A DNA stretch of 64,000 nt from assembly GCA_021462855.1 (NCBI GenBank), contig JAJTXQ010000014.1, positions 42,042-106,041 on the forward strand. Direction: 5' to 3'. Below the pieces are notes generated by a model. That model saw only the letters and a program-made list of their open reading frames with translations. It was not told the origin of the DNA and did not search any database. The stretch comes from Dehalococcoidia bacterium (GTDB lineage: Bacteria; Chloroflexota; Dehalococcoidia; DSTF01; JACRBR01). A program made the position numbers and the translations under genes. Shown in pieces: positions 6,463 through 49,664 of the stretch; positions within the stretch are counted from its first letter, which is position 1; each line of letters opens with the position of its first letter.

Positions 6463-6472
<10 letters not shown>

Positions 6473-8145: not shown

Positions 8146-8151
8146 CCGGCG

Positions 8152-8988: not shown

Positions 8989-9117
8989 CTTCCCTCCGCG
9001 AGCGAGGATACATCGCGCTCTCGCGCTCAAACAAACGGTGCGCCACGCCCGCTCCCGTAGGTATTCCGCCGATGCCATTCGGCACTGCGGGGCCGATGCT
9101 ACCGTTGGAGGACGCCC

Positions 9118-10512
9118 ATGCGCGAGCGTGCGCTCGAACTCATCACCGCTGCGGTGATCGCTGTGCCGCTGCTGGCGCTCGCTGCGTTCCACGCGTGGCC
9201 CCAGCACGACCCGCTGATCATGCGAAACCACCTGCACTTCTGGTCCGTCGGCGCCACGGCACTGGCATCCGCCATCGCGTGCGGCGTGATCGTCGCCGGG
9301 GCGCGCACGCTGCGGGAGACACGGTTGCTGTTCCTCGCGCTGGCATTCGTGTCGATCGGCGGCATCTTCTCGGTGCACGGTCTCCTGACGCCGCACGTGC
9401 TGGTCGAGACGTTTTACCCGGCGCTCGCCGTGTCATCGTGGGCAAGCGTGCTCGCAGGATCGGCGTTCGTCGCGCTCAGCGCGGCGCCGCTGCCACGGCC
9501 GATAGAGCGCGCGGTCGCCCGCGCCGGCGCCGCGATCTTCGCCTGGGCGACGGTCGGCATCGCTCTCTACATCACGCTCAGCTTCCGGGCGGAGCGCTGG
9601 CTCGACTGGGCGCCGACCGACGAACGCGCCGCGCAGTATCTCATCGCCGCGACGGCGACGGCGCTGTTCGCCTATGCCGCCTACCGCTACTGGCAGGCGT
9701 TCCAGTTCGCGCGCCTCCCCTCGCAGGGCGCGATGGTGATCGCGCTCGCGCTGCTTGCCGACGTGCCGGCGATCCTGCTCTGGGGCCAGCTGTGGGCATT
9801 CTCGTGGTGGATGTACCACCTCCTTTACGGCGCGGCGTTCGTCGTGCTGTTCGCCGGCTGGGCCTACGAGGCGCGGCGCGCCGGCTCGCTCAACGTCATC
9901 GCCGATGCGCTCTCAATGCGCGACGCGCTCGCCGCGCTCGACCGTGGCCGCGACGCCCACCTCATCGAGCTCGTCGACGCGATCGAGACGAAGGATCGCG
10001 CCACGCTCGGGCACGTCCGCCGCGTGAGCGCGTATGCGCTCGCTGCCGGCCGCGAGCTGCGGCTCGGCGCAACCGAATTGCGCGACCTCGCGCTCGCCGC
10101 CGAGATGCACGACGTGGGAAAGATCGGCGTGCCGGACCAGATCCTCGCCAAGCCCGGCAGGCTCACCCCCGACGAGCACGCGGAGATGCAGCGCCATGCG
10201 CAGCGTGGCGGCCGCATCGCGTCGGGTGTACGGTCGCTGCGCGGGATCGCCGCCGTGATCGGCGCGCACCATGAGCGGCTGAACGGCGCCGGTTACCCGG
10301 ACGGACTCCGCGGAGAACAGATCCCGTTCCTCGCCCGGATCATCGCCGTCGCCGACCCCTACGACGCGATGACATCCGACCGGCCGTACCGCCGCGCGAT
10401 GTCGCACGACGAGGCCGTCGCCGAGCTGGAGCGCGTGCGCGGCGTGGAGCTCGATGCGGCATGCGTCGATGCGCTGGTCCGCTCGCTGGACACACGCCGG
10501 GCCGCTGCCTGA
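9118..10512 (+). CDS. 7TM-receptor with HD-GYP domain (predicted c-di-GMP phosphodiesterase)
   Basis: About 7 N-terminal TM helices followed by HD (EMHDVGKIGVPD) and HHERLNGAGYPDGL (GYP) motifs. GGAGGA SD before the ATG. Confidence 0.8.
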   Translation: MRERALELITAAVIAVPLLALAAFHAWPQHDPLIMRNHLHFWSVGATALASAIACGVIVAGARTLRETRLLFLALAFVSIGGIFSVHGLLTPHVLVETFYPALAVSSWASVLAGSAFVALSAAPLPRPIERAVARAGAAIFAWATVGIALYITLSFRAERWLDWAPTDERAAQYLIAATATALFAYAAYRYWQAFQFARLPSQGAMVIALALLADVPAILLWGQLWAFSWWMYHLLYGAAFVVLFAGWAYEARRAGSLNVIADALSMRDALAALDRGRDAHLIELVDAIETKDRATLGHVRRVSAYALAAGRELRLGATELRDLALAAEMHDVGKIGVPDQILAKPGRLTPDEHAEMQRHAQRGGRIASGVRSLRGIAAVIGAHHERLNGAGYPDGLRGEQIPFLARIIAVADPYDAMTSDRPYRRAMSHDEAVAELERVRGVELDAACVDALVRSLDTRRAAA

Positions 10513-10551
10513 TCGCATTACGTCGACCACGTGCGGGCCGCCGCGCCCGGC

Positions 10552-10580
10552 GTCGCCGCAGCGCCATCCGCGCGTATAAT
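10552..10580 (+). promoter_or_regulatory. candidate sigma70-like promoter for dnaX (perfect TATAAT -10 at 10575-10580, weak -35)
   Basis: TATAAT lies 39 nt upstream of the dnaX ATG in a 106-nt intergenic gap. The -35 (GTCGCC) is poor. Confidence 0.3.
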
Positions 10581-10618
10581 GCGGGCATCCCAACGTTCTT
10601 CGAGCGCTCGGAGCCCGC

Positions 10619-12388
10619 ATGCCGGCCGAAGTCCTTTACCGCAAATGGCGCCCCCAGCGCTTCGCCGACGTCTCCGGACAGGAGGTCGTGAAGCGCACGC
10701 TCACGAACGCGCTCGCGCAGGGCAAGGTCTCGCACGCCTACCTCTTCTCCGGCCCGCGCGGCACCGGCAAGACGACGATGGGCCGCCTGCTCACAAAGGC
10801 GATCAACTGCGAGCGCATCCAGGACGCGGCCGGCGAGCCATGCAACGAGTGCGCATCCTGCATCGCGTTCAACGCCGGCACCGCGCTCGACCTCGTCGAG
10901 CTCGATGGCGCGAGCAACCGCGGCATCGACGAGATCCGCAAACTGCGCGAGAACGTCGGCTACATGCCGATGGCCGGCAGCGGCGCGCACAAGGTCTACC
11001 TGATCGACGAAGTGCACATGCTCACCGACCAGGCATTCAACGCCCTCCTCAAGACGCTCGAAGAACCGCCGCCGCACATCGTCTTCATCCTCGCGACCAC
11101 CGACGCGCACAAGGTGCCGCCGACCATCGTCTCGCGCTGCCAGCGGCTCGACTTCCGCCGCATCCCGCTCGGCGCGATCGTCGATCGGCTCGCGCACATC
11201 GCCGCGAACGAGGGCATCGCCATCCCGCGCGAAGGGCTCGAGTTGGTCGCCCGCAGCGCCACCGGCAGCCTGCGCGACGCGATCAACCTGCTCGAGCAAA
11301 TCTGCGACTCCTGGGGCAAGGAGGCCACGCTCGAAGCCGTCCGCGAGGGACTCGGCCTGATCGCCGACGAGCGCGCCGCCGGCCTCGCGCTGCAGGCGGT
11401 GCACGCCGACCTCGCCGGCGCGCTCTCCACCATCGGCGCCGTCCGCGACGACGGCATCGACCTCAAGCAGTTTCAGAAGGAAGTGGTCGCGCGCCTGCGC
11501 GAATTACTGCTCGTGCAGGCCGGCGCCGAGGGCGATGCCACGTACACGCCCGAGCAGGTCGACGCGATGCGCGAGAGCATCGCCGGGGTGCCGGGCGAGC
11601 GCATCGTCCGCGTGCTCAAGCTGTTCAGCCAGGCGGACCTGCGGCAGGATCAGCTCTCGCCGCTGCCGCTCGAGCTCGCCATCGCCGAGTCGATGGTCGC
11701 GCCCGCCGCAACGCAACCCGCCGCGTCGACCACCACGCAACGGCCCGCGCCGCCGATGCAGCGGCCCGCCTCACCTGCGCCCGCCGCGCGCCCGGCTCCG
11801 TCCTCTCGTGCGCCCGCGCGCCCGGCGCCGCAACCGCGCGCGCCCGAGCATCTGCGCCGCGACAACATCACCGGCGCATCGGCCGAGGACATCGCGCGGA
11901 TGGTCGGCAGCAAGGGGCCGGTGATCCCGCCCGCGACCGACGAGCCGGAGGGCGACGCACCGGCAGCAGCGCCCGCGACGGGGAACGGCGGCCAGGACCA
12001 GCCCGCCGCCGCGCCGGCGGCCGAGGGCGCGCACATCGGCGATGACGGCGTCGACCTCGACGCGTTCGTCAGCCAGCACCTGCGCCCGGCGGCGCGCAAA
12101 CGCTCGATGAAGCTCGACGCGCTGCTCAACGGCACCTGCCGCGCCGTCTCGTGGCAGGACGGCGTGCTCACGCTCGGCTTCTACCAGGACGCGTATCCGA
12201 AGAAGACGGCCGAGGAGCCGGCGAACCGCAAGGCGTACGAGGAGATCGCGTCGGCGCTGCTCGGGAAGCCCGTCTCGATCCGGTGTATCATTGCGCCGAG
12301 ACAGGCGAAGGCGCTGAGCAAGAGCCCGCTCGTCCAGCACGCCGTCCAGAACCTCGGCGCGACGATCGTCTCCGACGACGAAGACTGA
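10619..12388 (+). CDS. dnaX: DNA polymerase III subunits gamma/tau
   Basis: LYRKWRPQRFADVSGQE..., Walker A GPRGTGKTT, zinc module CNECASC and a Pro/Ala-rich tau linker; followed by ybaB-recR. Confidence 0.92.
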   Translation: MPAEVLYRKWRPQRFADVSGQEVVKRTLTNALAQGKVSHAYLFSGPRGTGKTTMGRLLTKAINCERIQDAAGEPCNECASCIAFNAGTALDLVELDGASNRGIDEIRKLRENVGYMPMAGSGAHKVYLIDEVHMLTDQAFNALLKTLEEPPPHIVFILATTDAHKVPPTIVSRCQRLDFRRIPLGAIVDRLAHIAANEGIAIPREGLELVARSATGSLRDAINLLEQICDSWGKEATLEAVREGLGLIADERAAGLALQAVHADLAGALSTIGAVRDDGIDLKQFQKEVVARLRELLLVQAGAEGDATYTPEQVDAMRESIAGVPGERIVRVLKLFSQADLRQDQLSPLPLELAIAESMVAPAATQPAASTTTQRPAPPMQRPASPAPAARPAPSSRAPARPAPQPRAPEHLRRDNITGASAEDIARMVGSKGPVIPPATDEPEGDAPAAAPATGNGGQDQPAAAPAAEGAHIGDDGVDLDAFVSQHLRPAARKRSMKLDALLNGTCRAVSWQDGVLTLGFYQDAYPKKTAEEPANRKAYEEIASALLGKPVSIRCIIAPRQAKALSKSPLVQHAVQNLGATIVSDDED

Positions 12389-16216: not shown

Positions 16217-17698
16217 CTACGCGAAGGCGTGGACGGCCCGCTGTGCCGCCTCGATGAGGGGGATGGGATAGACGAAGAACACGCACACGCCCGCCGCCGC
16301 CGCGACGAGCACGGCCTGCGTCGTCAGCGCGGGGCGGAGATCCTCGCCCGGTTCGCCATCGCCGCGATACATCTGCCGCGCCAGCCCGAGGTAGTAGAAC
16401 GCTGACACGACCGTGTTCAGCACGGCGATCATGACGAGCCACACCAGGTCCGCCCGCATGCCCGCGTTGAAGATGTACATCTTCGCCCAGAAGCCGGCCG
16501 TGGGCGGCAGGCCCGTCAGCGACAGTAGGCAAATCGTCAGCACCAGCGCCGCCAGCGGCGACCGCCGCGCGATACCGGCGTAATCCTCGATCTCGTCGCT
16601 GCCGGTCCGGTTGCCGATCGCCATTACCGCGAAGAACGCACCGAGGTTCGTGAAGGCGTACGTCGCGATGAAGAACACCACGCCACTCGCGCCGAGCGCC
16701 GTGCCGTCCGACGTCGACGAGATCGCCGCGAGCCCGACGAGGAAGTTGCCCGCCTGCGCGATCGAGCTGTAACCGAGCAGCCGCCGCACGTTCGTCTGGC
16801 GCAGCGCCATCACGTTGCCGACCGTCATCGACACGGCGGCGAGGACGGCGAACATCATCTTCCAATCCTCACCCACGAACGTGTCCGCGCCGAATCCCTC
16901 GAAGAAGACGCGCAACACCACCGCGAACGCCGCCGCCTTGCTGCCGACCGACAGCAACGCCGCCACCGGCGTCGGCGAGCCCTGGTACACGTCGGGCGTC
17001 CACATCTGGAACGGCACGATCGACATCTTGAATCCGAACCCGGCCGCGAGGAACACCATGCTCACGAGCAGCGCCGAGCGGATGCCGCTGTCGCCCGCCG
17101 CGATCGCCCCCGCGATGCTCGCGCCGCCGTCCGTCGCGACCAGCCGCGTCGTGCCGGCGATGCCGAACAGGAACGCCATGCCGTACAGCACCACCGCCGA
17201 TGAGATCGCGCCGAGCAGCAGGTACTTGATCGCCGCCTCGCTGCCCCGGTCATCGCGCAGGAACCCGGCGAGGATGAACTGCGTGATGCTCGTCAGCTCG
17301 AGCGCGACGAAGATCGCCACCAGGTCGCGCGATCCCGCGAGCAGCATCATCCCCGCTGTCGCGACGAGCACGAGCGCGAAGAACTCGCCCTTGTGGCTGC
17401 CGAACCGCTCGACGTACTCGAGCGACGCGAGCAGCACCGCGCCCGCGACGCCGATGAACAGGAACGTGAAGAAGATCGTGAAGTCGTCGAGCGCCATCGA
17501 GTCGCTGAAATACGACGCCTGGCGGTCGCGCGCGATCAGCTGCACCATCCACGCCGCCGACGCGGCAAGCCCGAGCAGGGCGACGCCGGCGAGCCACTTC
17601 TCGCGGCGGCGCGGCACGACGAGGTCGGCGAGCACGATCAGTCCCGCCGCCACCAGCACCGCCAGCACCGGGCCGAGCCGGTCGAGATCCTGCAGCAT
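16217..17698 (-). CDS. nuoN: NADH-quinone oxidoreductase subunit N
   Basis: 493 aa, about 14 TM, ND2/NuoN-like; its start overlaps the nuoM stop (ATGA). Confidence 0.9.
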   Translation of the reverse strand: MLQDLDRLGPVLAVLVAAGLIVLADLVVPRRREKWLAGVALLGLAASAAWMVQLIARDRQASYFSDSMALDDFTIFFTFLFIGVAGAVLLASLEYVERFGSHKGEFFALVLVATAGMMLLAGSRDLVAIFVALELTSITQFILAGFLRDDRGSEAAIKYLLLGAISSAVVLYGMAFLFGIAGTTRLVATDGGASIAGAIAAGDSGIRSALLVSMVFLAAGFGFKMSIVPFQMWTPDVYQGSPTPVAALLSVGSKAAAFAVVLRVFFEGFGADTFVGEDWKMMFAVLAAVSMTVGNVMALRQTNVRRLLGYSSIAQAGNFLVGLAAISSTSDGTALGASGVVFFIATYAFTNLGAFFAVMAIGNRTGSDEIEDYAGIARRSPLAALVLTICLLSLTGLPPTAGFWAKMYIFNAGMRADLVWLVMIAVLNTVVSAFYYLGLARQMYRGDGEPGEDLRPALTTQAVLVAAAAGVCVFFVYPIPLIEAAQRAVHAFA

Positions 17699-19197
17699 CA
17701 GCCCAGCCTCTGGACGATGTTCAGCATGCCGCTGTCCAGCACGTCAACCACCAGCGACGGCCGCACGCCGACCGCGACGATCACGAGCACCAGCGCCGCC
17801 ATCGGCACGCGCTCCCACCACTGGTCCGCATCGGGCACGTGCGCCCAGCGCTCGTGGCGCGGCCCGAAGAACACGCGCTGCGCCATCCACGTGATGTAGC
17901 CCGCCGACAGCAGGATGCCGATCACCGCGGCGATCGTCGGCAGAGTGTACTTGTCGAAGCTGCCGAGGAACACGAACAGCTCGGCGACGAACCCAGAGAG
18001 CGCCGGCAGCCCGAGCGACGCCAGCCCGGCGATGATCATCACCGTCGCCGTGAGCGGCATGGTGTGCGCGAGCCCGCCCAGCTGGTCGATGTCGCGGGTG
18101 TGCGTCCGGTCATAGATCACGCCGACCATCAGGAACAGCAGTCCCGTGATCGTGCCGTGCGTGAACATCTGCAACGCGGCGCCGCTCATCGACAGGTGCC
18201 CGAGCGCGGCGACCCCGAGCAGCACGTACCCCATGTGGCTCACCGATGAATACGCCACGAGCCGCTTCAGGTCCTTCTGCCGGAGCGTCAGCACCGCGCC
18301 GTAGATCACCGAGATCGCGGCGAGCGTGGCCATCCACACGCCGTAGTCCTTCGCCGTCTCGGGCAATAGCGTGACGAGGATGCGCAGCATGCCGTAGCCG
18401 CCCATCTTCAGCAGCACGCCGGCGAGGATCACCGACACGGCGGTCGGCGCGTCGGTGTGCGCATCCGGCAGCCACGTGTGCAGCGGGAACATCGGCAGCT
18501 TCACCGCGAACGCGATGAAGATGAACCCGAAGATCACCCACAGCGGCAGCAGCGCATCGCCGATCGTCGACTGTTGCAGCGCCACCATGTCGAACGTGGG
18601 ATCCGGCTGTGCGCTGAACCCCATCGCCAGGAACCCGACGAGCATGAACGCCGACCCGGCGACGGTGTACAGGACGAACTTCATCGCCGAGTACTCCTTG
18701 CGGCCGCTCCCCCAGATCGAGATGAGCATGTACATCGGCAGCAGTTCGACTTCCCAGAAGAAGAAGAACATCAGCAGGTCGAGCGAGGTGAAGACGCCGA
18801 GCCCCCCCGTCTCGAGCGCGAGCAGCCAGATGAAGTACTCCTTCGGCCGCAGCGTCACGCCGAACGAGATCAGCGTCGCGATGACGAAGAGGAACGTCGT
18901 GAGCAGCACCATCGTCACGCCGAGGCCGTCGACGCCGAGGTGGAACTGCACGTCGAACCCGGCCGACGCGGCGTCGATCCACGTGCCCTGCGACTCGAAC
19001 TGGAACGGGTTCGCCGCGACCTCGCCCGGGTGCCGGTCGAACGCGAACACGAGCACGACCGACGCGGCAAACGACGCGCCCGTCGCCATCAGCGCGAGCC
19101 ACTTCGCCTGACCCTGGCTGTCGCGCGGCACGGCCAGCATGAGCACGGCCGCGGCCACCGCCGGGAAGAACACCGTGAAGACCAGCACGCCGTTCAT
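17698..19197 (-). CDS. nuoM: NADH-quinone oxidoreductase subunit M
   Basis: 499 aa; ND4-type antiporter-like subunit (LLMFFFFWEVELLPMY, broken-helix motifs). Confidence 0.9.
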   Translation of the reverse strand: MNGVLVFTVFFPAVAAAVLMLAVPRDSQGQAKWLALMATGASFAASVVLVFAFDRHPGEVAANPFQFESQGTWIDAASAGFDVQFHLGVDGLGVTMVLLTTFLFVIATLISFGVTLRPKEYFIWLLALETGGLGVFTSLDLLMFFFFWEVELLPMYMLISIWGSGRKEYSAMKFVLYTVAGSAFMLVGFLAMGFSAQPDPTFDMVALQQSTIGDALLPLWVIFGFIFIAFAVKLPMFPLHTWLPDAHTDAPTAVSVILAGVLLKMGGYGMLRILVTLLPETAKDYGVWMATLAAISVIYGAVLTLRQKDLKRLVAYSSVSHMGYVLLGVAALGHLSMSGAALQMFTHGTITGLLFLMVGVIYDRTHTRDIDQLGGLAHTMPLTATVMIIAGLASLGLPALSGFVAELFVFLGSFDKYTLPTIAAVIGILLSAGYITWMAQRVFFGPRHERWAHVPDADQWWERVPMAALVLVIVAVGVRPSLVVDVLDSGMLNIVQRLG

Positions 19198-21165
19198 CTA
19201 CCGCTCCACCAGCAACAGCATCAGGAGCGACGCAATGACGAGGCCGGCGAAGCCGACCGTGCCATACGCCTGCACCGAACCCGACTGCACCCAGCGCAGC
19301 GTGTCGCCCGCACGGCGCGTCAGCGCCCCGGCGCCGTTCACCGCGCCATCGACGACGTTCGTGTCGAACCACTGGCCGGCGCGCGTCGCGAACGCGTACA
19401 GCCCGCGCCGCACGACGACGTCCTCGTACAGCTCGTCCATGTAGTACTTGCGCGCGACGAGCGTATGCACAGGGCCGAACGTCCTCTGCAGGTCGTCCGC
19501 CGGCACGACGCGCCGGACGTAGATCGCCCACGCCAGCGCGATGCCCGCGAGCGCGAGCGCCGTCGACGCGGCGGCGATGACGGCGTTGAACCCCGCGTGG
19601 TGCAGCGCGTGCGCCGACTCCTCCGGCAGCGAGCCGTGCAGCAGGTGGCCGAGGGCCTGGAGCGAGTCGTTCGGCACGTTCGTGAACCCCGCGAGCGCCG
19701 CCGGCACCGCGAGCACCAGGAGCGGCGCCGCCATCACCCACGGCGATTCGTGCGGCGTGCCGTGGTGCGCGTTGCCATGCTCGGGCGCCTCGCCGCCGCG
19801 GTACTCGCCCTCGAACGTCATGAAGACGGCGCGGAACGAGTAGAACGCGGTCATGAACACCACCGCCATCGCGACGAAGAACAGCAGCTTGTCGTCGTGC
19901 CATACCGTGCCGAGGATTTCGTCCTTCGACCAGAACCCCGCGAGCGGAAACACCCCAGCCAGGCTCAGCGAACCGATCAAGAACGTCGCCCACGTGATCG
20001 GCATGGACCGCCGCAGCCCGCCCATCTTGCGCATGTCGAACGTGCCCGTTGCGTGGTTCACCGAGCCCGAGCCCAGGAACAGCATCGCCTTGAAGTACGC
20101 GTGCGTGAACAGGTGGAAGATCGCCGCAACATACCCGCCGGCGCCAAGCGCCAGCATCATGTAGCCGAGCTGGCTGATCGTCGAGTACGCGAGCACGCGC
20201 TTGATGTCCGTCATCACGATGCCCATCGACGCCGCGAAGATCGCCGTGAACCCGCCGATGTACGCCACCGTCGTCATCGCCACGTCGGACGCCTGGAACA
20301 CGGGGAACATCCGCGCGACGAGGTACACGCCGGCGGCGACCATCGTCGCGGCGTGGATCAGCGCGGACACCGGCGTCGGGCCTTCCATCGCGTCCGGAAG
20401 CCATACGTGGAGCGGGAACTGGGCCGACTTGCCGACGGCGCCCGCAAACAGGCCGAGCGCAAAGAGCGTGATTACCGTGTCGGAGAGCGCACCGCTATGC
20501 GCCATCTCCTGCAGCACGGGGATGTCGAACGTGCCCGCCTTCGTCCACACGAGCAGGATCGCCAGCAAGAAGCCGATATCGCCGAGGCGCGTCGTCAGGA
20601 ACGCCTTCTTCGCCGCGTCGGCCGCCGACGGCTTGTGGAACCAGAACCCGATCAGCAGATACGACCCCAGCCCGACGAGCTCCCAGAACACGTAGATCAT
20701 CAGGATCGAGTCGAACAGCAGCAGGCCAAGCATTGCCGCCGTGAAGAGCGACATCCACGCGAAGTAGCGCGAGTAACCGCCGTCGTGCTCCATGTAGCCC
20801 TGCGAGTACACCTGGACGAGCAGCGAGACCGACGTCACGACGACCAGCATCACCGCGCTGAGCCCGTCGATGTTCAGGGCGAGACGGACCTCCAGCGACT
20901 GCCCGCCGAGGCGTTGCAACACGGGGTTGTCGGTGTGGACCTTCACCCACTCGTACGAGCTGAACGCCAGGCGATGGCCGTCGCTTTCGATGATGCTGTC
21001 CAGCACCCACAGCGATAGCAGGAACGCCGTTCCGATCGCCGCGATCGTCACGTAGCCCGACAACCGCGGGTACGGCTTCGTCACGAACCCGATGATCAGC
21101 AGCGAGGCGACCGGCAGCAGCAGGATCGCCCAGACCACACCCTCGGGGACCACCGGAAGCAGCAC
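19198..21165 (-). CDS. nuoL: NADH-quinone oxidoreductase subunit L
   Basis: 655 aa ND5-type with a long C-terminal amphipathic helix region; GTG start with AAGGAGAA SD. Confidence 0.9.
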   Translation of the reverse strand: MLLPVVPEGVVWAILLLPVASLLIIGFVTKPYPRLSGYVTIAAIGTAFLLSLWVLDSIIESDGHRLAFSSYEWVKVHTDNPVLQRLGGQSLEVRLALNIDGLSAVMLVVVTSVSLLVQVYSQGYMEHDGGYSRYFAWMSLFTAAMLGLLLFDSILMIYVFWELVGLGSYLLIGFWFHKPSAADAAKKAFLTTRLGDIGFLLAILLVWTKAGTFDIPVLQEMAHSGALSDTVITLFALGLFAGAVGKSAQFPLHVWLPDAMEGPTPVSALIHAATMVAAGVYLVARMFPVFQASDVAMTTVAYIGGFTAIFAASMGIVMTDIKRVLAYSTISQLGYMMLALGAGGYVAAIFHLFTHAYFKAMLFLGSGSVNHATGTFDMRKMGGLRRSMPITWATFLIGSLSLAGVFPLAGFWSKDEILGTVWHDDKLLFFVAMAVVFMTAFYSFRAVFMTFEGEYRGGEAPEHGNAHHGTPHESPWVMAAPLLVLAVPAALAGFTNVPNDSLQALGHLLHGSLPEESAHALHHAGFNAVIAAASTALALAGIALAWAIYVRRVVPADDLQRTFGPVHTLVARKYYMDELYEDVVVRRGLYAFATRAGQWFDTNVVDGAVNGAGALTRRAGDTLRWVQSGSVQAYGTVGFAGLVIASLLMLLLVER

Positions 21166-21179
21166 GCGTTCTCCTTACG

Positions 21180-21371
21180 TCAGATCTTGCGCAGGATCTC
21201 GGCCGCGACGTGCGTCTTGCTGTCGGGCACCCAGATCTCGCGCGCCTGCGCCATCGGCGCGTCGCTCGTCAGCGGCGGCACGACGCGGTTCGAGACGCCC
21301 TCCGCATCGAGCAGTTCCTTCCACACCTCGGCGGCGTACCCGTTCTTCACGTCCATCAGCTTCGACCACAC
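21180..21371 (-). CDS. DUF2007-like small soluble protein embedded in the nuo operon
   Basis: 63 aa, VWSKLMDVKNGYAAEVWKELLDAEGVSNRVV...IWVPDSK..AAEIL. Strong GC3 codon bias. GTG start 16 nt after the nuoK stop with a GGAGGGA SD; its stop is 15 nt before the nuoL start. Confidence 0.5.
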   Translation of the reverse strand: MWSKLMDVKNGYAAEVWKELLDAEGVSNRVVPPLTSDAPMAQAREIWVPDSKTHVAAEILRKI

Positions 21372-21386
21372 GTCGGCGTCCCTCCG

Positions 21387-21719
21387 TTACCAGCGCAGCA
21401 GGTCAATCTCGTCGATGTTCACCGTCTCGCGGTGCCGGTACACGGCGACGGCAAGCGCGAGCGCGACCGCCGCCTCCGCCGCCGCGATGGCGATGACGAA
21501 CATCGCGAACACCTGCCCATCGAGCGGCCGCGGCGACTCCACGTAGCGCGAGAACGCGAGGAACGTCACGTTCACGGCGTTCAGCATCAACTCCACGCCC
21601 ATCAGGATGCCGACGGCGTTGCGCTTCGACAGCGAGACGTACAGGCCGATGCTGAAGAGCAGCGCGCCGATCACCAGCACGTTCTCGAGCGACACCGAGG
21701 CGAGCACGACGCTAGACAT
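21387..21719 (-). CDS. nuoK: NADH-quinone oxidoreductase subunit K
   Basis: 110 aa, 3 TM, ND4L-like (LSLSKRNAVGILMGVELMLNAVNV). Confidence 0.9.
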   Translation of the reverse strand: MSSVVLASVSLENVLVIGALLFSIGLYVSLSKRNAVGILMGVELMLNAVNVTFLAFSRYVESPRPLDGQVFAMFVIAIAAAEAAVALALAVAVYRHRETVNIDEIDLLRW

Positions 21720-22218
21720 CGTCGCCCTCCTCGCGCGTGAGCACGATCGCGCCGATCATCGCCGTCATCAGCAGCACTGAGACGACCTCGAACGGCACCA
21801 CGTACGGCTTGAGGAACGCCTCCCCGAGCGACGCCGCGGTCGCCGGAAACGCATCGCGCCCCGAGATGCGCCACTCGGTGTCGTACGCGACGAACGTCAC
21901 GATGGCGAGCACGAGGCCCGCGAGCACCGCCGCCGGCGCCTGGAAGATCGTCTCGGAGTTCCGGCGGTCCGCCGCCGGCGTAAGCATGATCGCGAACGTC
22001 ATCAGCACGCCGACCGCGCCGGCGTAGATCAGCACCTGCACCAGCGCCACGAAGTCCGCCGCCAGCACGATGTAGATGCCGGCGACGCCGACGAACGTCA
22101 GCGCCAGGAACAACACGGCGTGGACCAGGTTCCGCACCGCCGCGACCATCAGCGCGCATACCACCGTTGATACCGCGATCACCCAGAAGGCGACGACCAC
22201 GCCCGCGTCGTCGATCAC
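21712..22218 (-). CDS. nuoJ: NADH-quinone oxidoreductase subunit J
   Basis: ND6-like (LVQVLIYAGAVGVLMTFAIML). Start chosen at GTG 22218 (GAGGGAAGGA SD); the track start 22254 lacks an SD. Confidence 0.8.
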   Translation of the reverse strand: MIDDAGVVVAFWVIAVSTVVCALMVAAVRNLVHAVLFLALTFVGVAGIYIVLAADFVALVQVLIYAGAVGVLMTFAIMLTPAADRRNSETIFQAPAAVLAGLVLAIVTFVAYDTEWRISGRDAFPATAASLGEAFLKPYVVPFEVVSVLLMTAMIGAIVLTREEGDDV

Positions 22219-22261
22219 GCGCGCCGTCCTTCCCTCGCGGCGCCACCGCCGCACGCGCGCG

Positions 22262-23548
22262 TCATTGCGACTGCGTGCCCGGCTGCACCGGCGCCACCGC
22301 CGGCAGCGACGGCACGTCGATCGTCGAGTAGAAGCGCGGGCGGTCGGGGAATCGCTCGAAGCGCGGCGCGAACACGCGCACCCACGCGACGATGAGCGCC
22401 AGCGCCAGCGCGTTGTTGAGCACGACGTAGATCGGCAGCAGCACGCCCGCGCTCCAGCCTGTCTCCTCCCAGATGAGCACCTCGGCCGCGACCATCAACA
22501 CGTTGACGAGCGCCATCGGCGTCATCCACTTCCAGGCGAAGGCGAGCAACTGGTCGATGCGGAATCGCGGCAGCGTACCGCGCGTCCAGATGAAGAGGAA
22601 GTACACCGCGTACACCTTGCCGATGTAGATCATCCAGCCCGGCACGATCTCATCGAGCTTGTACGCCCACCACCCGCCCAGGAACAGCGTCGCGATGATC
22701 GCCGACACGGTGACGCAGTTGATGAGCTCCGCCGCGTAGTACAGCCCGAACTTCATCCCGGAGTACTCGACGTGGTATCCGCCCGCGATCTCGGACTCCG
22801 CCTCGGCAAGGTCCGCGGGCGTGCGGTTCAGCTCGGCCGAAGACGACATGAAGTAGATCACGAACGCCAGCGGTTGGAGCATGATGAGGAAGAGCCAGTG
22901 ATCCTCCTGGAAGCGCACGATGCCGTCGAGGTTCATCGTCCCCGCGAACATGGCGATGCCCAGCAGCGACATCACGATCGGGATCTCGTACGTCACGAGC
23001 ATCGCGATCACACGCATCGACCCGAACAGCGCGTACTTGTTGTTCGAGCCGTACCCGCCGATGAACACCGCCAGCGCCGCCAGCGACGACATCGCGAAGA
23101 TGAACACGATGCCGGCGTCGAGGCTCGCGAGCGTCATGTTGCGGCCCCACGGGACCACCGCCAGCACCGCGATCCCCGGCACGGTGAACGCGATCGGCGC
23201 CGCCGTGAACACCAGCGCGTCGGCAAGCTTCGGCTGCAGCACTTCCTTCTGCATGAGCTTGATCGCGTCGGCCAGCGGCTGCAGCAGGCCGACCGGCCCG
23301 GGGCGGTTCGGCCCCAGCCGTGACTGCATTCGCCCCACCACGCGCCGCTCGATCCAGATGTTGATGATGGCCGTCACGCCCACGAACGTCACGATGCCGG
23401 CGGCGCCGAGCAACCCGGCCACCACGTAGACGAGCCAGCCCGGCCCGCCGGCGTCGCTGACCAGGTCGCGGATCGCGCCGCTCAGGTTCGACAGGTCGCG
23501 GATGTCCCACCAGTTGTCCGTGATGATCGTCAGCAGCGCGCCGGTCAT
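22262..23548 (-). CDS. nuoH: NADH-quinone oxidoreductase subunit H
   Basis: ND1-like (RRVVGRMQSRLGPNRPGP, YEIPIVMSLLG). ATG 23548 overlaps the nuoD stop (ATGA). Confidence 0.9.
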   Translation of the reverse strand: MTGALLTIITDNWWDIRDLSNLSGAIRDLVSDAGGPGWLVYVVAGLLGAAGIVTFVGVTAIINIWIERRVVGRMQSRLGPNRPGPVGLLQPLADAIKLMQKEVLQPKLADALVFTAAPIAFTVPGIAVLAVVPWGRNMTLASLDAGIVFIFAMSSLAALAVFIGGYGSNNKYALFGSMRVIAMLVTYEIPIVMSLLGIAMFAGTMNLDGIVRFQEDHWLFLIMLQPLAFVIYFMSSSAELNRTPADLAEAESEIAGGYHVEYSGMKFGLYYAAELINCVTVSAIIATLFLGGWWAYKLDEIVPGWMIYIGKVYAVYFLFIWTRGTLPRFRIDQLLAFAWKWMTPMALVNVLMVAAEVLIWEETGWSAGVLLPIYVVLNNALALALIVAWVRVFAPRFERFPDRPRFYSTIDVPSLPAVAPVQPGTQSQ

Positions 23549-24651
23549 CGGTCCACCTCGCCGACGTTGATGTCGATGCTGCCGAGCGTGACGATCGCGT
23601 CGGCGATCGACTGGCCGATCGTCATCTGCGGCAGCACGCTGAGGTTGATCAGCGATGGCGCGCGCACGTGCCAGCGATAGGGCGCCGGCCCGCCGTCGCT
23701 CACGACGTAGAACCCGAGTTCGCCCTTCGGCGACTCGACGCGCGAATACGCCTCTCCGGCCGGCGGCCGCAGCGCGAGCGGCACGTCGACCTTGTGCGGG
23801 CCGTCCGGCAACTCGGCCATGCACTGACGGATGATCCGCAAGCTTTGCTTCATCTCCTCGATCCGGATCACCATCCGGTCATACGAATCGCCGTTGTAGC
23901 CGACCGGGATCTCAAAGTTCATCCGGTCGTACACGCAATAGGGGTCCGCCTTCCGGATATCCCACGCGATGCCGGCGCTGCGCAGCATCGGCCCGCTGAG
24001 CGAGGCGTTGATCGCCATCTCCGGCGTCACGACACCGACGTCGCGCGAGCGCATGAGGATGATCTCGTTTCCGACGATCAGGTTCTCGAGCTCCTCGAAG
24101 CGCGCCGGCAGGTCGTCGTTCACGAGCCAGTCGAGCGCCGGCAAGAACTCGTCCGGGATGTCGAATGCCACGCCGCCGATCCGCATGTAATTCGTGGTGA
24201 TGCGCGCGCCGCACGTCATCTCGAACAGGTCGAGCACCTTCTCGCGGTCGCGGAAGGTGTACATCACCGGCGTCTGCCAGGCGCCGCAGTCGTTGATGAA
24301 CGCGCCGGTCGCCATGCAGTGGCTCGCCACGCGTTGCAGCTCCGAGAACATCGTCCGCAGGTACTGCGCGCGTTCCGGCACGTCGATGCCCGCGAGCTTC
24401 TCCACCGACAGGCAGTAGCCGAGATTCCCGGTCATCGCCGCCAGGTAATCCATGCGGTCCGTGAACGGGATGTTCTGCGTGTACGTGCGCTCTTCGGCCA
24501 GCTTTTCCATGCTGCGGTGCAGGTAGCCGACGACCATCTTCACGTCGGTGACGCGCTCGCCGTCGATCCGCGCGACCATGCGGAACACGCCGTGCGTGCT
24601 CGGGTGCTGCGGTCCGATGTTGACTTCGACGGGCTCCGACTTGATCGGCAC
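23545..24651 (-). CDS. nuoD: NADH-quinone oxidoreductase subunit D (49 kDa)
   Basis: VNIGPQHPSTHGVFRMV... and C-terminal GELGFYVVSDGG...RAPSLINL match Nqo4/NuoD. Confidence 0.9.
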   Translation of the reverse strand: MPIKSEPVEVNIGPQHPSTHGVFRMVARIDGERVTDVKMVVGYLHRSMEKLAEERTYTQNIPFTDRMDYLAAMTGNLGYCLSVEKLAGIDVPERAQYLRTMFSELQRVASHCMATGAFINDCGAWQTPVMYTFRDREKVLDLFEMTCGARITTNYMRIGGVAFDIPDEFLPALDWLVNDDLPARFEELENLIVGNEIILMRSRDVGVVTPEMAINASLSGPMLRSAGIAWDIRKADPYCVYDRMNFEIPVGYNGDSYDRMVIRIEEMKQSLRIIRQCMAELPDGPHKVDVPLALRPPAGEAYSRVESPKGELGFYVVSDGGPAPYRWHVRAPSLINLSVLPQMTIGQSIADAIVTLGSIDINVGEVDR

Positions 24652-24669
24652 GTGATCCTGCTTCGCGCG

Positions 24670-25233
24670 TTATGGCGCGCCCGCGCCCGCGTCGCGCGGG
24701 CGGAACTCGCCGCCGGTCTGCCCCGGCGCCTGCTTCGGGAACTGGCTCAGCCCCGACTTCTGCCCTCCCGGCAACGACATGAAGTCCTTGCGCAACGGGT
24801 GCCCCGGGAACTTGTCCCAGAGGAAGAGGCGCGTGAGCTCCGGGTGGCCCTCGAACGCCACGCCCATCAGGTCGTACACCTCGCGCTCCTGCAGCGTGGC
24901 GCCGATCCAGAGCGGGGCGACCGATGCCACGGCGGGGCGCTCGTGATCCGCCGGCACCTTCACCTCGAAAATGTGGTTCCGCGCCAGCGATGCCAGGTGG
25001 TAGACGACGTCGATGCGCGTGATCATGTCCACGCTGCACATCTGCACCAGGTACTTCGCATCGAGTTCGGGGTCGTCGCGCATGAACGCCATGGCCGCGA
25101 ACAGCGAAGCCGGTTCAAGCACGACGTGTTCGGCGAACGCCTCACGCACGGCGCCCGGCAGCGCCGCGCCCAACCGCTCGGCGACAGCCGTGCCCGGCAG
25201 CGTGACCGTGGCGGGATGCGGCACTACTTCCAC
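24670..25233 (-). CDS. nuoC: NADH-quinone oxidoreductase subunit C (30 kDa)
   Basis: NuoC-like core (EREVYDLMGVAFEGHPELTRLFL). Start is GTG 25233 or 25224, overlapping the nuoA stop, so no room for nuoB. Confidence 0.8.
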   Translation of the reverse strand: MEVVPHPATVTLPGTAVAERLGAALPGAVREAFAEHVVLEPASLFAAMAFMRDDPELDAKYLVQMCSVDMITRIDVVYHLASLARNHIFEVKVPADHERPAVASVAPLWIGATLQEREVYDLMGVAFEGHPELTRLFLWDKFPGHPLRKDFMSLPGGQKSGLSQFPKQAPGQTGGEFRPRDAGAGAP

Positions 25234-25595
25234 TCCATCGCGCCCTTGCGCCACGCGTACGCATATCCGACGAACAGGATCCCCAGGAACAGCACCACCT
25301 CGACGAACGCGTACAGGCCGAGCTGCCGGTACGTCACCGCCCAGGGATACAGGAACACCGCCTCGACATCGAAAATCACGAACAGCAGGCCGAACACGTA
25401 GTACCGCACGTTGTAGCGGACCTGCGCGTTGCCGATCGGCACCATGCCGCACTCGTAGATCGACTCCTTGACCGGATCCGGCTTCCGCGGGCGGATCTTG
25501 AACACCCCGAGCACCACCGAGGCAACGATTGGGAGCAGGGGGAACGCGACCGCAAACAGGAGCAGGAACCCGGCGCGGCCGAATTGCTCAATCAA
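25224..25595 (-). CDS. nuoA: NADH-quinone oxidoreductase subunit A
   Basis: 123 aa, ND3-like (YECGMVPIGNAQVRYNVRYYVFGLLFVIFDVEAVFLYPWA); AGGGAGCAAGAG SD. Confidence 0.85.
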   Translation of the reverse strand: MIEQFGRAGFLLLFAVAFPLLPIVASVVLGVFKIRPRKPDPVKESIYECGMVPIGNAQVRYNVRYYVFGLLFVIFDVEAVFLYPWAVTYRQLGLYAFVEVVLFLGILFVGYAYAWRKGAMEWK

Positions 25596-25829
25596 CTGCT
25601 CTTGCTCCCTGGCGGCACTTTGTGAATTTCTGCGCTAGCGCGCGGAATATATCACAGGCCCCCTGCACGGACAACAGAATCGTGCCCCCGGAACCCTGCC
25701 CAGAGTAGGCGTTCCTGCCACCTCGGCCAATCCCGTTCCACTACGGGCCTTACGCCCCTCAAGTACGGGAAAACCCTGCCGATAGCTCCTGTAGCAGAAG
25801 GAAACCGCATCTCAGCTCGGAGGTAACCG

Positions 25830-25919
25830 ATGTCCCGCTACATCACTGCAGCCCTCATCGCCGGTAACTTCATCGCCGTGGTCGCCATCGCTGCCGCGCC
25901 GTGGTCCTGGGGCCGCTAA
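25830..25919 (+). CDS. 29-aa hydrophobic micro-ORF (MSRYITAALIAGNFIAVVAIAAAPWSWGR)
   Basis: ATG at 25830 with a GGAGGT SD 6 nt upstream; single predicted TM; TAA stop; 100 nt upstream of a polytopic membrane protein. Too short for the ORF track. Confidence 0.35.
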   Translation: MSRYITAALIAGNFIAVVAIAAAPWSWGR

Positions 25920-26020
25920 CCGGCCGCCGGCAAGCGAAACGCGATGCCCCGCCTGGCGGGGCATCTTCGCATCTGCGGCAGAAGCCGATACTCCGGCGGC
26001 CGCACCGACCGGGGAGAGCC

Positions 26021-26590
26021 ATGCCGACGCCCACCAACCGCATCGTCCTGAGCACATCGCTGGCGCTCGCGCTCCTGCTCGCCCAGGCGCTGACCATCCG
26101 CTTCGCGCCGTCCGAGCTTGCCGTGCGCATCGTCCTGCCCGCGACGATCGCGCTCGTGCCGCTCGCGCTGTGGCCGCAGCGGCGCTTCGCGGGCGTGTGG
26201 GTGATGTTCGTTGGCCTTGCCGCGAACCTCGCGGCGATCCTCTCGAACGGCGGACTGATGCCGATCCGTTACGACACCGTCGTCCACGCCGTCGGCGAAG
26301 CACGCGCGGCCACGTATGCGCCCGGCGCCTGGATGCCCCGCTCGAAGGACGTGCTGCTGGCGCCCGGCGACGGGCGCCTCGTCGCGCTCGGCGACGAGAT
26401 CATCGTGCGCACCGGGCGGCGCGGGTTCGCCGTGAGCGCCGGCGACCTCGTCATCCTCGCAGGCATGGCCGTGCTCGTCGCACAGGCGTCGTGGGAGTGG
26501 CAGCGGCGGCGCGCGCCACGGGGGGAGGGCGGCGTGCCTACTCCTCGCGCGGCACGCCACCCCGCCACCACGGGGCGTACCCCGCGATAG
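26021..26590 (+). CDS. polytopic membrane protein of unknown function (DUF5317-like by recollection)
   Basis: ATG 26021 with GGGGAGAG SD; about 4 TM helices; NGGLMPIR and GDEIIVRTG..SAGDLVILAG motifs. Family assignment is from memory and not verified. Confidence 0.5.
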   Translation: MPTPTNRIVLSTSLALALLLAQALTIRFAPSELAVRIVLPATIALVPLALWPQRRFAGVWVMFVGLAANLAAILSNGGLMPIRYDTVVHAVGEARAATYAPGAWMPRSKDVLLAPGDGRLVALGDEIIVRTGRRGFAVSAGDLVILAGMAVLVAQASWEWQRRRAPRGEGGVPTPRAARHPATTGRTPR

Positions 26591-26766: not shown

Positions 26767-27051
26767 CTAGCCGGTGATGGCGTCGACCTTCGCCCGCGCG
26801 GCCGCCTTGTCCTTGTACCACAGCGCATTGATCTCGGTGAACGGCTTCGCGGCGTCCGGCACGTCGTCCTCGGCGAAGATCGCGTTCACCGGGCATGCCG
26901 GCTCGCAGGCGCCGCAGTCGATGCACTCGTCCGGGTCGATGTACAGCAGCTTGTCATCGTCGCCTTCGTCGTGGATGCAGTCCACCGGACAGACGTCCAC
27001 GCACGAGCGGTCCTTCGTGCCGATGCAGGGGTCGGTGATGACGTAGGCCAT
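26767..27051 (-). CDS. fdxA: 7Fe ferredoxin ([3Fe-4S][4Fe-4S], FdxA-type)
   Basis: [30 protein letters not shown]...[18 protein letters not shown]: CxxDxxC...CP and CxxCxxC...CP motifs. Confidence 0.85.
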
Positions 27052-27132
27052 GGTTTGAGTTCGCTCCTTGTGTGCCTTTCCGAGTCGCTGGTCCGGCGAT
27101 CCGCGGGCATTGTAGGCACGGCCCAACGCTAA

Positions 27133-27624
27133 GTGAAGGAGGTTTGCGAAGTCTTTGCTTCGCTTATCCAGCGGATTGTCGGAATCGATACCCGGCCCGA
27201 CAATGCCACCGTGGATGACTCACGCGACCCCATCCTGCGTCGCATCGCGGCGCTCGCCGGCGAGTACGATGCGACGGCGGAGCCGTTCGTCGTGCAGTGC
27301 CTGCACGCCGGGCACGATGTCGCCATCGCCGCCGCGGCGCTCGACCTGCTCTGCCGCCGCTGGAGCCGCACCGCGGAGTACCTCGACGCGGTGCATCTCT
27401 TCGTGCGCGGCGTCGCGTGGGACGAGGGCGACCGGCTCCGGCTCGCTGCCATCGCCATTGCCGGCGCGTGGCTCCAGGAGCGCGAGGACCTGCCGCTGCT
27501 CTATGAGCTCATCGACATCGCCGAACGCGGCGACGGCGCCAGCGACGCCGTGCGCGACGGCGCGGTGCGCGCGCTCGCGCGTGCGACGGGCTATCGCGGC
27601 AAGCCGATCAGCCTCGACCTCTAA
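27133..27624 (+). CDS. hypothetical protein (alpha-helical)
   Basis: ORF with GTG 27133; the first ~25 codons have atypical low GC3, so the true start may be further downstream. No recognisable family. Confidence 0.3.
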
Positions 27625-39424: not shown

Positions 39425-39734
39425 CTCTCCTTGTTCCTTCCTTCCTCCTCCTCACGCGCGGACGCCCCGCAACGTGTCGGTTGCGTTCGAGGCTGTGCCG
39501 GGGACTACGCTGCCGCGGGGCGCGGGGCACAGCGCACGGTCCAGCCGTGGCTCAACCCCACTGTATCGCCTGACGACAGATTGGACGAGGCCCGGTCAGA
39601 AAGTGAGTCCATTCGGCCCCCTGCGGCCCGTGCCAAGTACCGAGCACGCACGGCCGGTCATCCCTTCCGATTCGTGGGCTTTTTCACGATCATGAGGAGG
39701 ACGCCTTAACCGTTCCGTAACAGGAGGAGGGAAC

Positions 39735-41777: not shown

Positions 41778-41850
41778 CAATCAACTCCACTGGCGGTGCG
41801 GGCCACGGTGGCCCGCACCCGCCCGTGGTGCATCTTGAGGGAGGTGCATC

Positions 41851-49635: not shown

Positions 49636-49664
49636 TCCCGTAGCGCACAACAGAAGGATGGGGC

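What the first reader, a model, noticed from the sequence alone, without database searches (positions are those of the whole stretch)
16217..25595. nuo locus A-C-D-H-J-K-L-M-N with no space for nuoB, nuoI or nuoEFG
The nuoA stop overlaps the nuoC start, and the nuoH-nuoJ gap is under 45 nt. The subunits carrying clusters N2 (NuoB) and N6a/b (NuoI), and the whole NADH-oxidising module, are therefore not encoded here. Eleven-subunit complexes lacking EFG are known, but a Q-module without NuoB cannot be functional. The missing genes must lie elsewhere, or this is a second, divergent membrane-arm copy.
Basis: seen in the sequence. Interest (0 to 1): 0.55.

Follow-up and report, generated by a model that had tools for sequence, protein, structure and literature searches.

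The report
Complex I operon missing nuoB, nuoI
This soil Chloroflexota bacterium, like at least 79 related species, has a respiratory complex I operon that lacks the genes for its two core iron-sulfur subunits, NuoB and NuoI; they are almost certainly encoded elsewhere in the genome, so this is an unusual but probably functional gene arrangement.

Summary
On the minus strand, 16217-25595 encodes nuoA-C-D-H-J-K-(58-aa ORF)-L-M-N. The nuoA stop overlaps the nuoC start by 1 nt, nuoD/nuoH overlap as ATGA, and 43 nt separate nuoH from nuoJ. I found no NuoB, NuoI or NuoF signature or homologue anywhere in the 64-kb window.

It is not an artefact. The same order appears in 79 species-level Dehalococcoidia-class genomes and in independent read assemblies. 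None has nuoB or nuoI within 10 kb.

In a NuoD tree these operons form one clade, sister to canonical Dehalococcoidia A-B-C-D-H-I-J-K-L-M-N operons. Both groups share a neighbouring ybeY and a small ORF between nuoK and nuoL. This is therefore the lineage's original operon after one ancient excision of B and I, not a divergent second copy.

All nine genes are under purifying selection. The NuoD quinone-site residues are invariant in 80 of 80 sequences, so cluster N2 (NuoB) is still needed.

I could not locate nuoB or nuoI in this lineage, so "encoded elsewhere" is inferred. A precedent exists: the Ca. Methylomirabilis oxyfera genome has two orphan nuoB-nuoI pairs.

Verdict: a new organisational variant of the known 11-subunit-type complex I, of moderate interest.

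The parts
25646..25674 (-). Promoter-like site (TTGTCC-17 nt-TATATT with an extended-10 TG) about 50 nt upstream of nuoA
   Evidence: Consensus scan only. Two such sites were found in the region against 0.9 expected, so this is weak evidence.
25224..25595 (-). nuoA (123 aa, TTG start preceded by AGGGAG)
   Evidence: PF00507, E=9e-37. Best NCBIfam match is a NuoA model. Sequence read. The ND3-loop YECG motif is present.
24670..25224 (-). nuoC (184 aa, GTG start sharing one base with the nuoA TAG stop)
   Evidence: PF00329, E=6e-35. Junction read. The same boundary is called on Logan contigs.
23545..24651 (-). nuoD (368 aa) with an intact quinone site and no NiFe-binding CxxC motifs
   Evidence: PF00346, E=4e-94. 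NCBIfam NuoD models NF004739 and TIGR01962 score above their cut-offs. Alignment to T. thermophilus Nqo4 maps H38, R84, Y87 and D139 to H20, R66, Y69 and D121. These are invariant in 80 of 80 clade sequences.
22262..23548 (-). nuoH (428 aa, ATGA overlap with nuoD)
   Evidence: PF00146, E=1e-103. NF004741 scores above its cut-off. Junction read.
22219..22261 (.). 43-nt nuoH-nuoJ spacer at the position where nuoI sits in canonical operons
   Evidence: Sequence. In L080 the same position holds a 168-aa NuoI.
21712..22218 (-). nuoJ (168 aa)
   Evidence: PF00499, E=7e-36. Start chosen from the ribosome-binding site and the independent gene call.
21387..21719 (-). nuoK (110 aa)
   Evidence: PF00420, E=3e-28. 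NF004320 scores above its cut-off.
21180..21356 (-). Conserved 58-aa ORF between nuoK and nuoL. It is soluble, has no cysteines, and is a candidate accessory subunit or assembly factor.
   Evidence: tblastn finds it at the same position in 73 loci, including canonical Dehalococcoidia operons. Its only Pfam similarity is to DUF2007, E=0.0014, below the cut-off.
19198..21165 (-). nuoL (655 aa)
   Evidence: PF00361 and PF00662. NF005141 scores 677 bits, above its cut-off.
17698..19197 (-). nuoM (499 aa)
   Evidence: TIGR01972 scores 536 bits, above its cut-off.
16217..17698 (-). nuoN (493 aa)
   Evidence: TIGR01770 scores 373 bits, above its cut-off.
26767..27051 (-). fdxA-type ferredoxin gene 1.2 kb upstream of nuoA on the same strand, as a separate transcription unit. 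It is a possible electron donor, not NuoI.
   Evidence: Best NCBIfam match is FdxA_Actino at 105 bits (cut-off 125), against 27 bits for NuoI. It keeps this position in only 13 of the closest relatives.

Best explanation
This is the main, vertically inherited nuo operon of a high-GC (about 69%) soil member of the class Dehalococcoidia (Chloroflexota). It encodes an 11-subunit-type complex I, the kind without NuoEFG.

In the common ancestor of a large clade, the genes for the two iron-sulfur subunits of the quinone module were removed cleanly from the operon. These are nuoB (cluster N2) and nuoI (clusters N6a and N6b). What remains is nuoA-C-D-H-J-K-(small ORF)-L-M-N.

The enzyme is still a proton-pumping quinone reductase. 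NuoB and NuoI are made from genes elsewhere on the chromosome: more than 16 kb from nuoN and more than 38 kb from nuoA in this genome, and more than 10 kb away wherever that much flank was available in the relatives. They assemble with the operon-encoded NuoC, NuoD and NuoH to rebuild the N6a/b to N2 to quinone electron path.

Shown: gene content, junctions, clade-wide conservation, a single origin, purifying selection and an intact quinone site.

Inferred: that nuoB and nuoI exist in trans, and the identity of the electron donor. The donor could be a ferredoxin such as the neighbouring FdxA, or an unlinked input module.
For: - Gene identities and junctions.
- Conservation: 79 of the 80 closest NuoD loci in GTDB species genomes share the order. 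The A-C gap has a median of 11 nt and a maximum of 126 nt. The H-J gap has a median of 45 nt and a maximum of 405 nt. No NuoB or NuoI appears in any flank by motif scan or tblastn.
- Independent Logan assemblies reproduce the junctions.
- The 80 NuoD sequences are monophyletic and sister to canonical Dehalococcoidia A-B-C-D-H-I-J operons.
- ybeY is a neighbour of nuoN in 39 loci, including canonical L080. The small nuoK-nuoL ORF is shared with canonical operons.
- dN/dS is 0.08-0.41 for the nine genes and lowest for nuoD.
- The equivalents of Nqo4 H38, R84, Y87 and D139 are invariant in 80 of 80 sequences.
- Precedents for unlinked B and I genes: two orphan nuoB-nuoI pairs in the complete Ca. 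Methylomirabilis oxyfera genome; orphan pairs on Methylomirabilota metagenome contigs; nuoB-nuoCD-nuoI operons in other Chloroflexota; and an orphan nuoB2 in Nitrospina gracilis NUO-2 (PMC3578206).
Against: The trans-encoded nuoB and nuoI were not found. Three NuoB homologue searches returned only proteins from canonical operons or other lineages: a canonical Dehalococcoidia query, a Methylomirabilota query and an Anaerolineae-type query. The look-ups confirmed this. A GC-rich NuoB pattern scan of metagenomes gave 120 loci, none attributable to this clade. It does mean the key step rests on inference. The equivalent of the N2-adjacent His169 of Nqo4 is not a histidine here (Ile in this window, mostly Leu across the clade); it is also absent from cyanobacterial NdhH and Aquifex NuoCD2.
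Confidence: 0.8

Rival explanations
1. This is a second, auxiliary nuo copy. The genome also carries a complete nuo operon (11 or 14 genes), and this B- and I-less operon borrows NuoB and NuoI from it or is partly redundant with it.
For: Many Chloroflexota carry two complex I gene sets, for example Chloroflexus aurantiacus (PMC3150298). The best 80 NuoD loci each come from a different genome, and a paralogue below about 62% identity would not have been listed. A second operon therefore cannot be excluded.
Against: The operon occupies the ancestral context, with ybeY as a neighbour of nuoN and the shared nuoK-nuoL small ORF. Its NuoD clade is the direct sister of the canonical Dehalococcoidia operons, as expected for the orthologue rather than a paralogue. 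nuoD is its most strongly constrained gene. A borrowed-subunit arrangement would not explain why exactly B and I, and not C and D, were dispensable.
Confidence: 0.13
2. The clade has truly lost NuoB and NuoI. The A-C-D-H-J-K-L-M-N complex works without iron-sulfur clusters, as a redox-independent cation/proton transporter like Mrp, or with a non-homologous redox partner.
For: No NuoB or NuoI was found in 64 kb here, in about 1.3 Mb of flanks from 79 relatives, or among the listed hits of three homologue searches. Exactly the two cofactor-bearing subunits are the ones missing.
Against: The quinone-binding His, Tyr, Asp and Arg of NuoD are invariant in 80 of 80 sequences, and nuoD has the lowest dN/dS in the operon. 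That is not expected for a vestigial redox site. No known complex I relative keeps the NuoD homologue without the NuoB homologue (established knowledge of group 4 hydrogenases, MBH/MBS and Fpo). The searches could not sample the clade's genomes exhaustively.
Confidence: 0.05
3. It is an assembly or reading artefact: a chimeric join or a missed short reading frame.
For: None beyond the unusual gene order.
Against: The same junctions occur in 79 independently assembled genomes, including three closed chromosomes, and in Logan read assemblies carrying a NuoD identical to the window's and the same gene boundaries. Six-frame motif scans and tblastn find no hidden frame.
Confidence: 0.01

Closest known systems
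Canonical 11-gene nuo operon of Dehalococcoidia (A-B-C-D-H-I-J-K-L-M-N, no nuoEFG), also the Bacillus type
   Same: It has the same subunit families. The best NCBIfam matches for NuoA, C and D are the short models PRK07756, PRK07735 and PRK12322. NuoD is 60-62% identical, ybeY is likewise a neighbour of nuoN, and the same small ORF lies between nuoK and nuoL. NuoEFG is absent.
   Different: nuoB and nuoI are missing from their positions between A and C and between H and J.
Orphan nuoB-nuoI pairs of Methylomirabilota (Ca. Methylomirabilis oxyfera FP565575.1 and Methylomirabilota-type metagenome contigs)
   Same: The two iron-sulfur subunit genes sit together away from nuoA, C, D and H. In M. 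oxyfera one pair follows a nuoG-like gene and the other follows cysteine desulfurase and IscA-like genes. This is the complementary half of what is seen here.
   Different: It is a different phylum. I could not check whether the membrane-arm operons of M. oxyfera lack B and I, and no such pair has yet been tied to the Dehalococcoidia clade.
Nitrospina gracilis NUO-2
   Same: The nuo genes are dispersed. nuoB2 is an orphan and the other genes form nuoACHIJKLMN and nuoEGD clusters (PMC3578206).
   Different: There nuoI stays in the main cluster and nuoD leaves it. That system also has modified NuoE, F and G.
Quinone-module operon nuoB-nuoCD-nuoI of other Chloroflexota (named hits are Anaerolineae and Caldilineaceae)
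   Same: It occurs in the same phylum and also splits complex I genes into separate loci. In L212-L215 the iron-sulfur subunit genes sit next to an Mrp/ApbC-type iron-sulfur carrier gene.
   Different: There the whole quinone module (B, C, D, I) leaves together. Here C and D stay with the membrane arm.
Cyanobacterial and chloroplast NDH-1 (ndh genes)
   Same: It is an 11-core-subunit enzyme without NuoEFG, it uses ferredoxin as donor, and its genes are scattered over several loci (general knowledge; PMC3144371).
   Different: ndhK (the B homologue) stays with ndhC and ndhJ, and ndhI stays with ndhA, G and E. NCBIfam NDH-1 models score below their cut-offs here.

Membership tests
Respiratory complex I, 11-subunit (NuoEFG-less) type | Seven membrane subunits NuoA, H, J, K, L, M and N | tested here: met
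   All seven have Pfam hits with E between 1e-28 and 1e-104. The NCBIfam models for H, K, L, M and N score above their cut-offs.
Respiratory complex I, 11-subunit (NuoEFG-less) type | NuoC and NuoD, with the quinone-site residues His38, Tyr87 and Asp139 (Nqo4 numbering) | tested here: met
   PF00329 and PF00346 hits, with NuoD models above cut-off. H20, Y69, D121 and R66 are invariant in 80 of 80 clade sequences.
Respiratory complex I, 11-subunit (NuoEFG-less) type | NuoB, carrying cluster N2, encoded with the complex | tested here: not met
   NuoB is absent from the locus, from the 64-kb window and from the fetched flanks (up to 10 kb per side) of 79 relatives. Presence elsewhere in the genome could not be tested with these tools.
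Respiratory complex I, 11-subunit (NuoEFG-less) type | NuoI, carrying clusters N6a and N6b, encoded with the complex | tested here: not met
   Only 43 nt lie between nuoH and nuoJ. No NuoI is present in the window or the flanks, and the nearby ferredoxin matches FdxA-type models best, not NuoI. Presence elsewhere in the genome could not be tested.
Group 4 [NiFe] hydrogenase and Ehr-type complexes | Large subunit with N- and C-terminal CxxC nickel-iron ligands, next to a small-subunit (NuoB-like) gene | tested here: not met
   NuoD has no CxxC motif and ends in DINVGEVDR (sequence; regex). There is no small-subunit gene. MBH and FHL chains are much weaker PDB matches than Nqo4.
Mrp-type cation/proton antiporter | MrpA-G gene set, including MrpE, F and G, without NuoC, D or H homologues | tested here: not met
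   NuoC, D and H are present. NCBIfam Mrp models score far below their cut-offs, while the NuoL, M and N models are above theirs.
F420H2 dehydrogenase (Fpo) | Fpo-specific subunit models and FpoF or FpoO | tested here: not met
   All Fpo models score below their cut-offs, for example FpoD at 347 against 600. No FpoF-like gene was seen among the window ORFs scanned.
Split nuo organisation with an orphan nuoB-nuoI pair (as in Ca. M. oxyfera) | A nuoB-nuoI pair elsewhere in the same genome | not testable with these tools
Protein searches list only their best 120 hits and gave none from this clade.

The most novel reading that the evidence does not exclude
A large Dehalococcoidia clade (79 or more species) has no dedicated nuoB or nuoI at all. 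Its A-C-D-H-J-K-L-M-N complex would then either work without clusters N2, N6a and N6b, or recruit iron-sulfur subunits from another enzyme. That would be the first complex I relative to keep NuoC and NuoD without the NuoB partner. A milder version also remains open: all cofactor-bearing subunits are grouped in a separate locus next to iron-sulfur assembly genes, as in M. oxyfera.
Probability: 0.06. Interest if true: 0.85.

Novelty: new variant of a known kind. Interest (0 to 1): 0.4.

Why it matters
If nuoB and nuoI are simply elsewhere, the finding still has practical value. It documents a conserved way of splitting complex I genes across a whole clade: iron-sulfur subunits apart from the apoprotein scaffold. 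Together with the Methylomirabilis pairs, one of which lies beside iron-sulfur biogenesis genes, this hints at separate regulation or assembly of the cofactor-bearing parts.

It also warns annotators not to score complex I as incomplete or absent in these abundant soil and aquatic Chloroflexota because the operon lacks B and I.

If the genes are truly absent, it would challenge the view that the NuoB-NuoD pair is the indivisible core of all complex I relatives.

Tried and rejected
1. A hidden nuoB or nuoI frame in the locus or window. Six-frame motif scans and tblastn found none.

2. The upstream 2x[Fe-S] gene (26767-27051) as a displaced NuoI. Rejected: it matches FdxA-type ferredoxin models best and scores only 27 bits on the NuoI model. 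It keeps this position only in the closest relatives.

3. NuoB or NuoI fused to a neighbouring gene. NuoC, NuoD and NuoH carry no iron-sulfur domains. The C-terminal extension of NuoH is also present in canonical L080.

4. Finding the lineage's NuoB with the canonical Dehalococcoidia NuoB as query. All checked hits sit in A-B-C-D operons, and all 120 listed hits share the N-terminal extension seen in those canonical NuoB proteins.

5. A GC-rich NuoB DNA pattern scan of JGI metagenomes. It gave orphan nuoB-nuoI pairs, which proved to be Methylomirabilota. It also gave nuoB-nuoCD-nuoI and nuoBCD-nuoI loci, whose closest named relatives are Anaerolineae- and Caldilineaceae-type Chloroflexota. Tetranucleotide similarity and flank BLAST linked none of them to this clade.

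6. A scan of viral contigs for NuoB. It returned only unrelated hits.

7. Literature searches for this gene order in Chloroflexi, Dehalococcoidia, Tepidiforma or Methylomirabilis. I found no description of it. The one text match to 'nuoACDHJKLMN' is a listing in an Acidobacteria preprint, not this arrangement.


Full report
**What is there**

The window has about 69% G+C. Pfam and NCBIfam assign nine consecutive minus-strand ORFs between 16217 and 25595 to NuoA, C, D, H, J, K, L, M and N. E-values run from 1e-28 to 1e-104, and several NCBIfam equivalog models score above their cut-offs.

- The nuoA stop and the nuoC GTG start share one base (TAGTG).
- nuoD and nuoH overlap as ATGA.
- 43 nt, containing a ribosome-binding site, separate the nuoH stop from the nuoJ start.
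- An independent gene call on read-assembled contigs that carry an identical NuoD gives the same boundaries.

Neither nuoB (about 480 nt or more) nor nuoI (about 400 nt or more) can fit.

I searched the whole 64-kb window in six frames for NuoB, NuoI and NuoF signatures and by tblastn with three NuoB and four NuoI queries. The only signal is a ferredoxin gene at 26767-27051. NCBIfam places it with FdxA-type ferredoxins rather than NuoI: 105 bits on FdxA_Actino (cut-off 125) against 27 bits on the NuoI model (cut-off 113). A Pfam pass over the other high-GC3 ORFs of the window found no further nuo gene.

One thing was missed. The 221-nt nuoK-nuoL spacer encodes a 58-aa, cysteine-free protein (21180-21356). 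It is conserved at the same position in 73 loci and shows only sub-threshold similarity to DUF2007.

**It is real and widespread**

A scan of one genome per GTDB species with NuoD returned 80 loci, all from Chloroflexota MAGs and mostly labelled Dehalococcoidia. Identity to the window's NuoD ranged from 93% down to 62%.

In 79 of them the order is the same, within the limits of contig length:
- The A-C gap between aligned segments has a median of 11 nt and a maximum of 126 nt.
- The H-J gap has a median of 45 nt and a maximum of 405 nt.
- No NuoB or NuoI is detectable in the fetched flanks, up to 10 kb per side.

The set includes three closed chromosomes and several contigs of 0.5-2 Mb. Only the most distant locus, L080 (62% NuoD identity), is canonical: A-B-C-(radical SAM gene)-D-H-I-J-K-L-M-N. 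Chimeric assembly is therefore excluded.

**Origin**

A neighbour-joining tree of 157 NuoD sequences places all 80 sequences from B- and I-less operons in one clade. Its sister group consists of canonical Dehalococcoidia operons: L080, L083-L089, L110, L129, L169 and L216.

ybeY is a neighbour of nuoN in 39 loci, including L080. The small nuoK-nuoL ORF is also shared with canonical operons.

So this is the lineage's orthologous, ancestral operon, and B and I were excised cleanly once. It is not a divergent extra copy. No remnant of either gene is detectable.

**Is it functional, and does it need NuoB?**

Pairwise dN/dS against five relatives is 0.08-0.41 for the nine genes and lowest for nuoD, at 0.08-0.15. 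Synonymous change is probably underestimated at 93% GC3, so these ratios are likely overestimates.

Alignment to T. thermophilus Nqo4 maps the quinone-site residues His38, Tyr87 and Asp139, and Arg84, to H20, Y69, D121 and R66. All four are invariant in 80 of 80 clade sequences.

NuoD has no hydrogenase-type CxxC motifs. The Fpo, NDH-1 and Mrp models score below their cut-offs.

A strictly conserved quinone-reduction site implies that electrons still arrive from cluster N2, and hence that NuoB and its upstream partner NuoI still exist. This step is an inference from established complex I structure and function.

**Search for the missing genes**

This search failed, and that limits the conclusion.

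- NuoB of L080 as query returned 120 close relatives. All share the same N-terminal extension, and every context checked was A-B-C-D.
- A GC-rich NuoB DNA pattern scan of JGI metagenomes gave 120 loci.
- Among these loci were stand-alone nuoB-nuoI pairs (L101, L125, L151, L175, L189). A homologue search showed they belong to Methylomirabilota.
- Also among them were nuoB-nuoCD-nuoI and nuoBCD-nuoI loci (L106, L118, L162, L204). Their closest named relatives are Anaerolineae- and Caldilineaceae-type Chloroflexota. In related MAG contigs (L212-L215) the operon continues with an Mrp/ApbC iron-sulfur carrier gene and a PSP1 gene.
- Neither tetranucleotide similarity nor flank BLAST linked any of these loci to the clade.

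All scan and search quotas that could reach the clade's genomes were then exhausted.

**Precedents**

The complete Ca. Methylomirabilis oxyfera chromosome carries two orphan nuoB-nuoI pairs. One follows a nuoG-like gene. The other follows cysteine desulfurase and IscA-like genes.

Nitrospina gracilis NUO-2 has an orphan nuoB2, with the other genes in nuoACHIJKLMN and nuoEGD clusters (PMC3578206). Chloroflexus aurantiacus has a loosely arranged second nuo set (PMC3150298). Eleven-subunit enzymes without NuoEFG are common (PMC3144371).

Unlinked iron-sulfur subunit genes are therefore an established possibility. I found no description of the A-C-D-H-J-K-L-M-N order as a conserved clade trait.

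**Conclusion**

- Best explanation (confidence about 0.8): an 11-subunit-type complex I whose nuoB and nuoI are encoded in trans.
- A co-existing complete operon that lends B and I: about 0.13.
- A truly iron-sulfur-free complex: about 0.05.
- Artefact: about 0.01.

The electron donor is unknown. A ferredoxin gene with its own promoter-like site lies upstream of nuoA in this genome and in 13 close relatives. That is suggestive only.

This is a new organisational variant of a known enzyme and of moderate interest. It would become high interest only if whole-genome searches of the closed clade genomes find no nuoB or nuoI.

Noticed in passing
window 21180-21356 (-): A conserved 58-aa, cysteine-free ORF lies between nuoK and nuoL, with C-terminal motif REIWVPDSKTHVAxEIxRKI. 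It is found at the same position in 73 loci, including canonical Dehalococcoidia operons. Its only Pfam similarity is to DUF2007, below the cut-off. It may be a lineage-specific accessory subunit or assembly factor of complex I.
   Followed up: partly
window 26767-27051 (-): An FdxA-type ferredoxin gene with its own promoter-like site (27109-27137) lies 1.2 kb upstream of nuoA. A divergently oriented DUF5317 gene (25901-26590) sits between them. The arrangement is kept in 13 close relatives. The ferredoxin is a candidate electron donor for an enzyme without NuoEFG.
   Followed up: partly
window 38945-45702: A nitrous-oxide reductase locus: nosZ (39696-41777, nos_propeller plus cupredoxin domains), a cupredoxin-like gene (38945-39451) and ABC transporter genes (43988-45702) that may correspond to nosF and nosY. 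The organism may respire N2O.
   Followed up: no
L225 (Ca. Methylomirabilis oxyfera FP565575.1, 1358676-1379203), genes at 8261-11070 and 17311-19969: Two orphan nuoB-nuoI pairs lie about 9 kb apart. One follows a nuoG-like gene. The other follows cysteine desulfurase and IscA-like genes. No nuoA, C, D or H is nearby.
   Followed up: partly
L212-L215 (10001-15778); L106, L118, L162, L204: Other Chloroflexota carry a stand-alone quinone-module operon, nuoB-nuoCD(fused)-nuoI. In L212-L215 it continues with a small ORF, an Mrp/ApbC iron-sulfur carrier gene and a PSP1 gene. In L204, B, C and D are fused into one 839-aa protein.
   Followed up: partly
L080 8286-10001; L089 1264-2988; L083 12122-13702 and 17933-18361; L086 5831-7330: Canonical Dehalococcoidia nuo operons carry several insertions and fusions: a B12-binding radical SAM gene between nuoC and nuoD, a NuoH-NuoI fusion protein, a NUDIX gene between nuoM and nuoN, and a TnpB-like (Cas12f1-like_TNB domain) insertion between nuoJ and nuoK.
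   Followed up: no
L218-L220, L223 (IMG/VR contigs, 36-38% GC): Low-GC contigs classified as viral carry a lone NuoB homologue (about 53% identical to a Dehalococcoidia NuoB), and tblastn with the nuo queries found no other nuo gene on them.
   Followed up: no
window 6463-8151 (-), 27133-27624 (+), 41839-42531 (+), 49644-50813 (+): Four ORFs with coding-like GC3 have no significant Pfam match.
   Followed up: no
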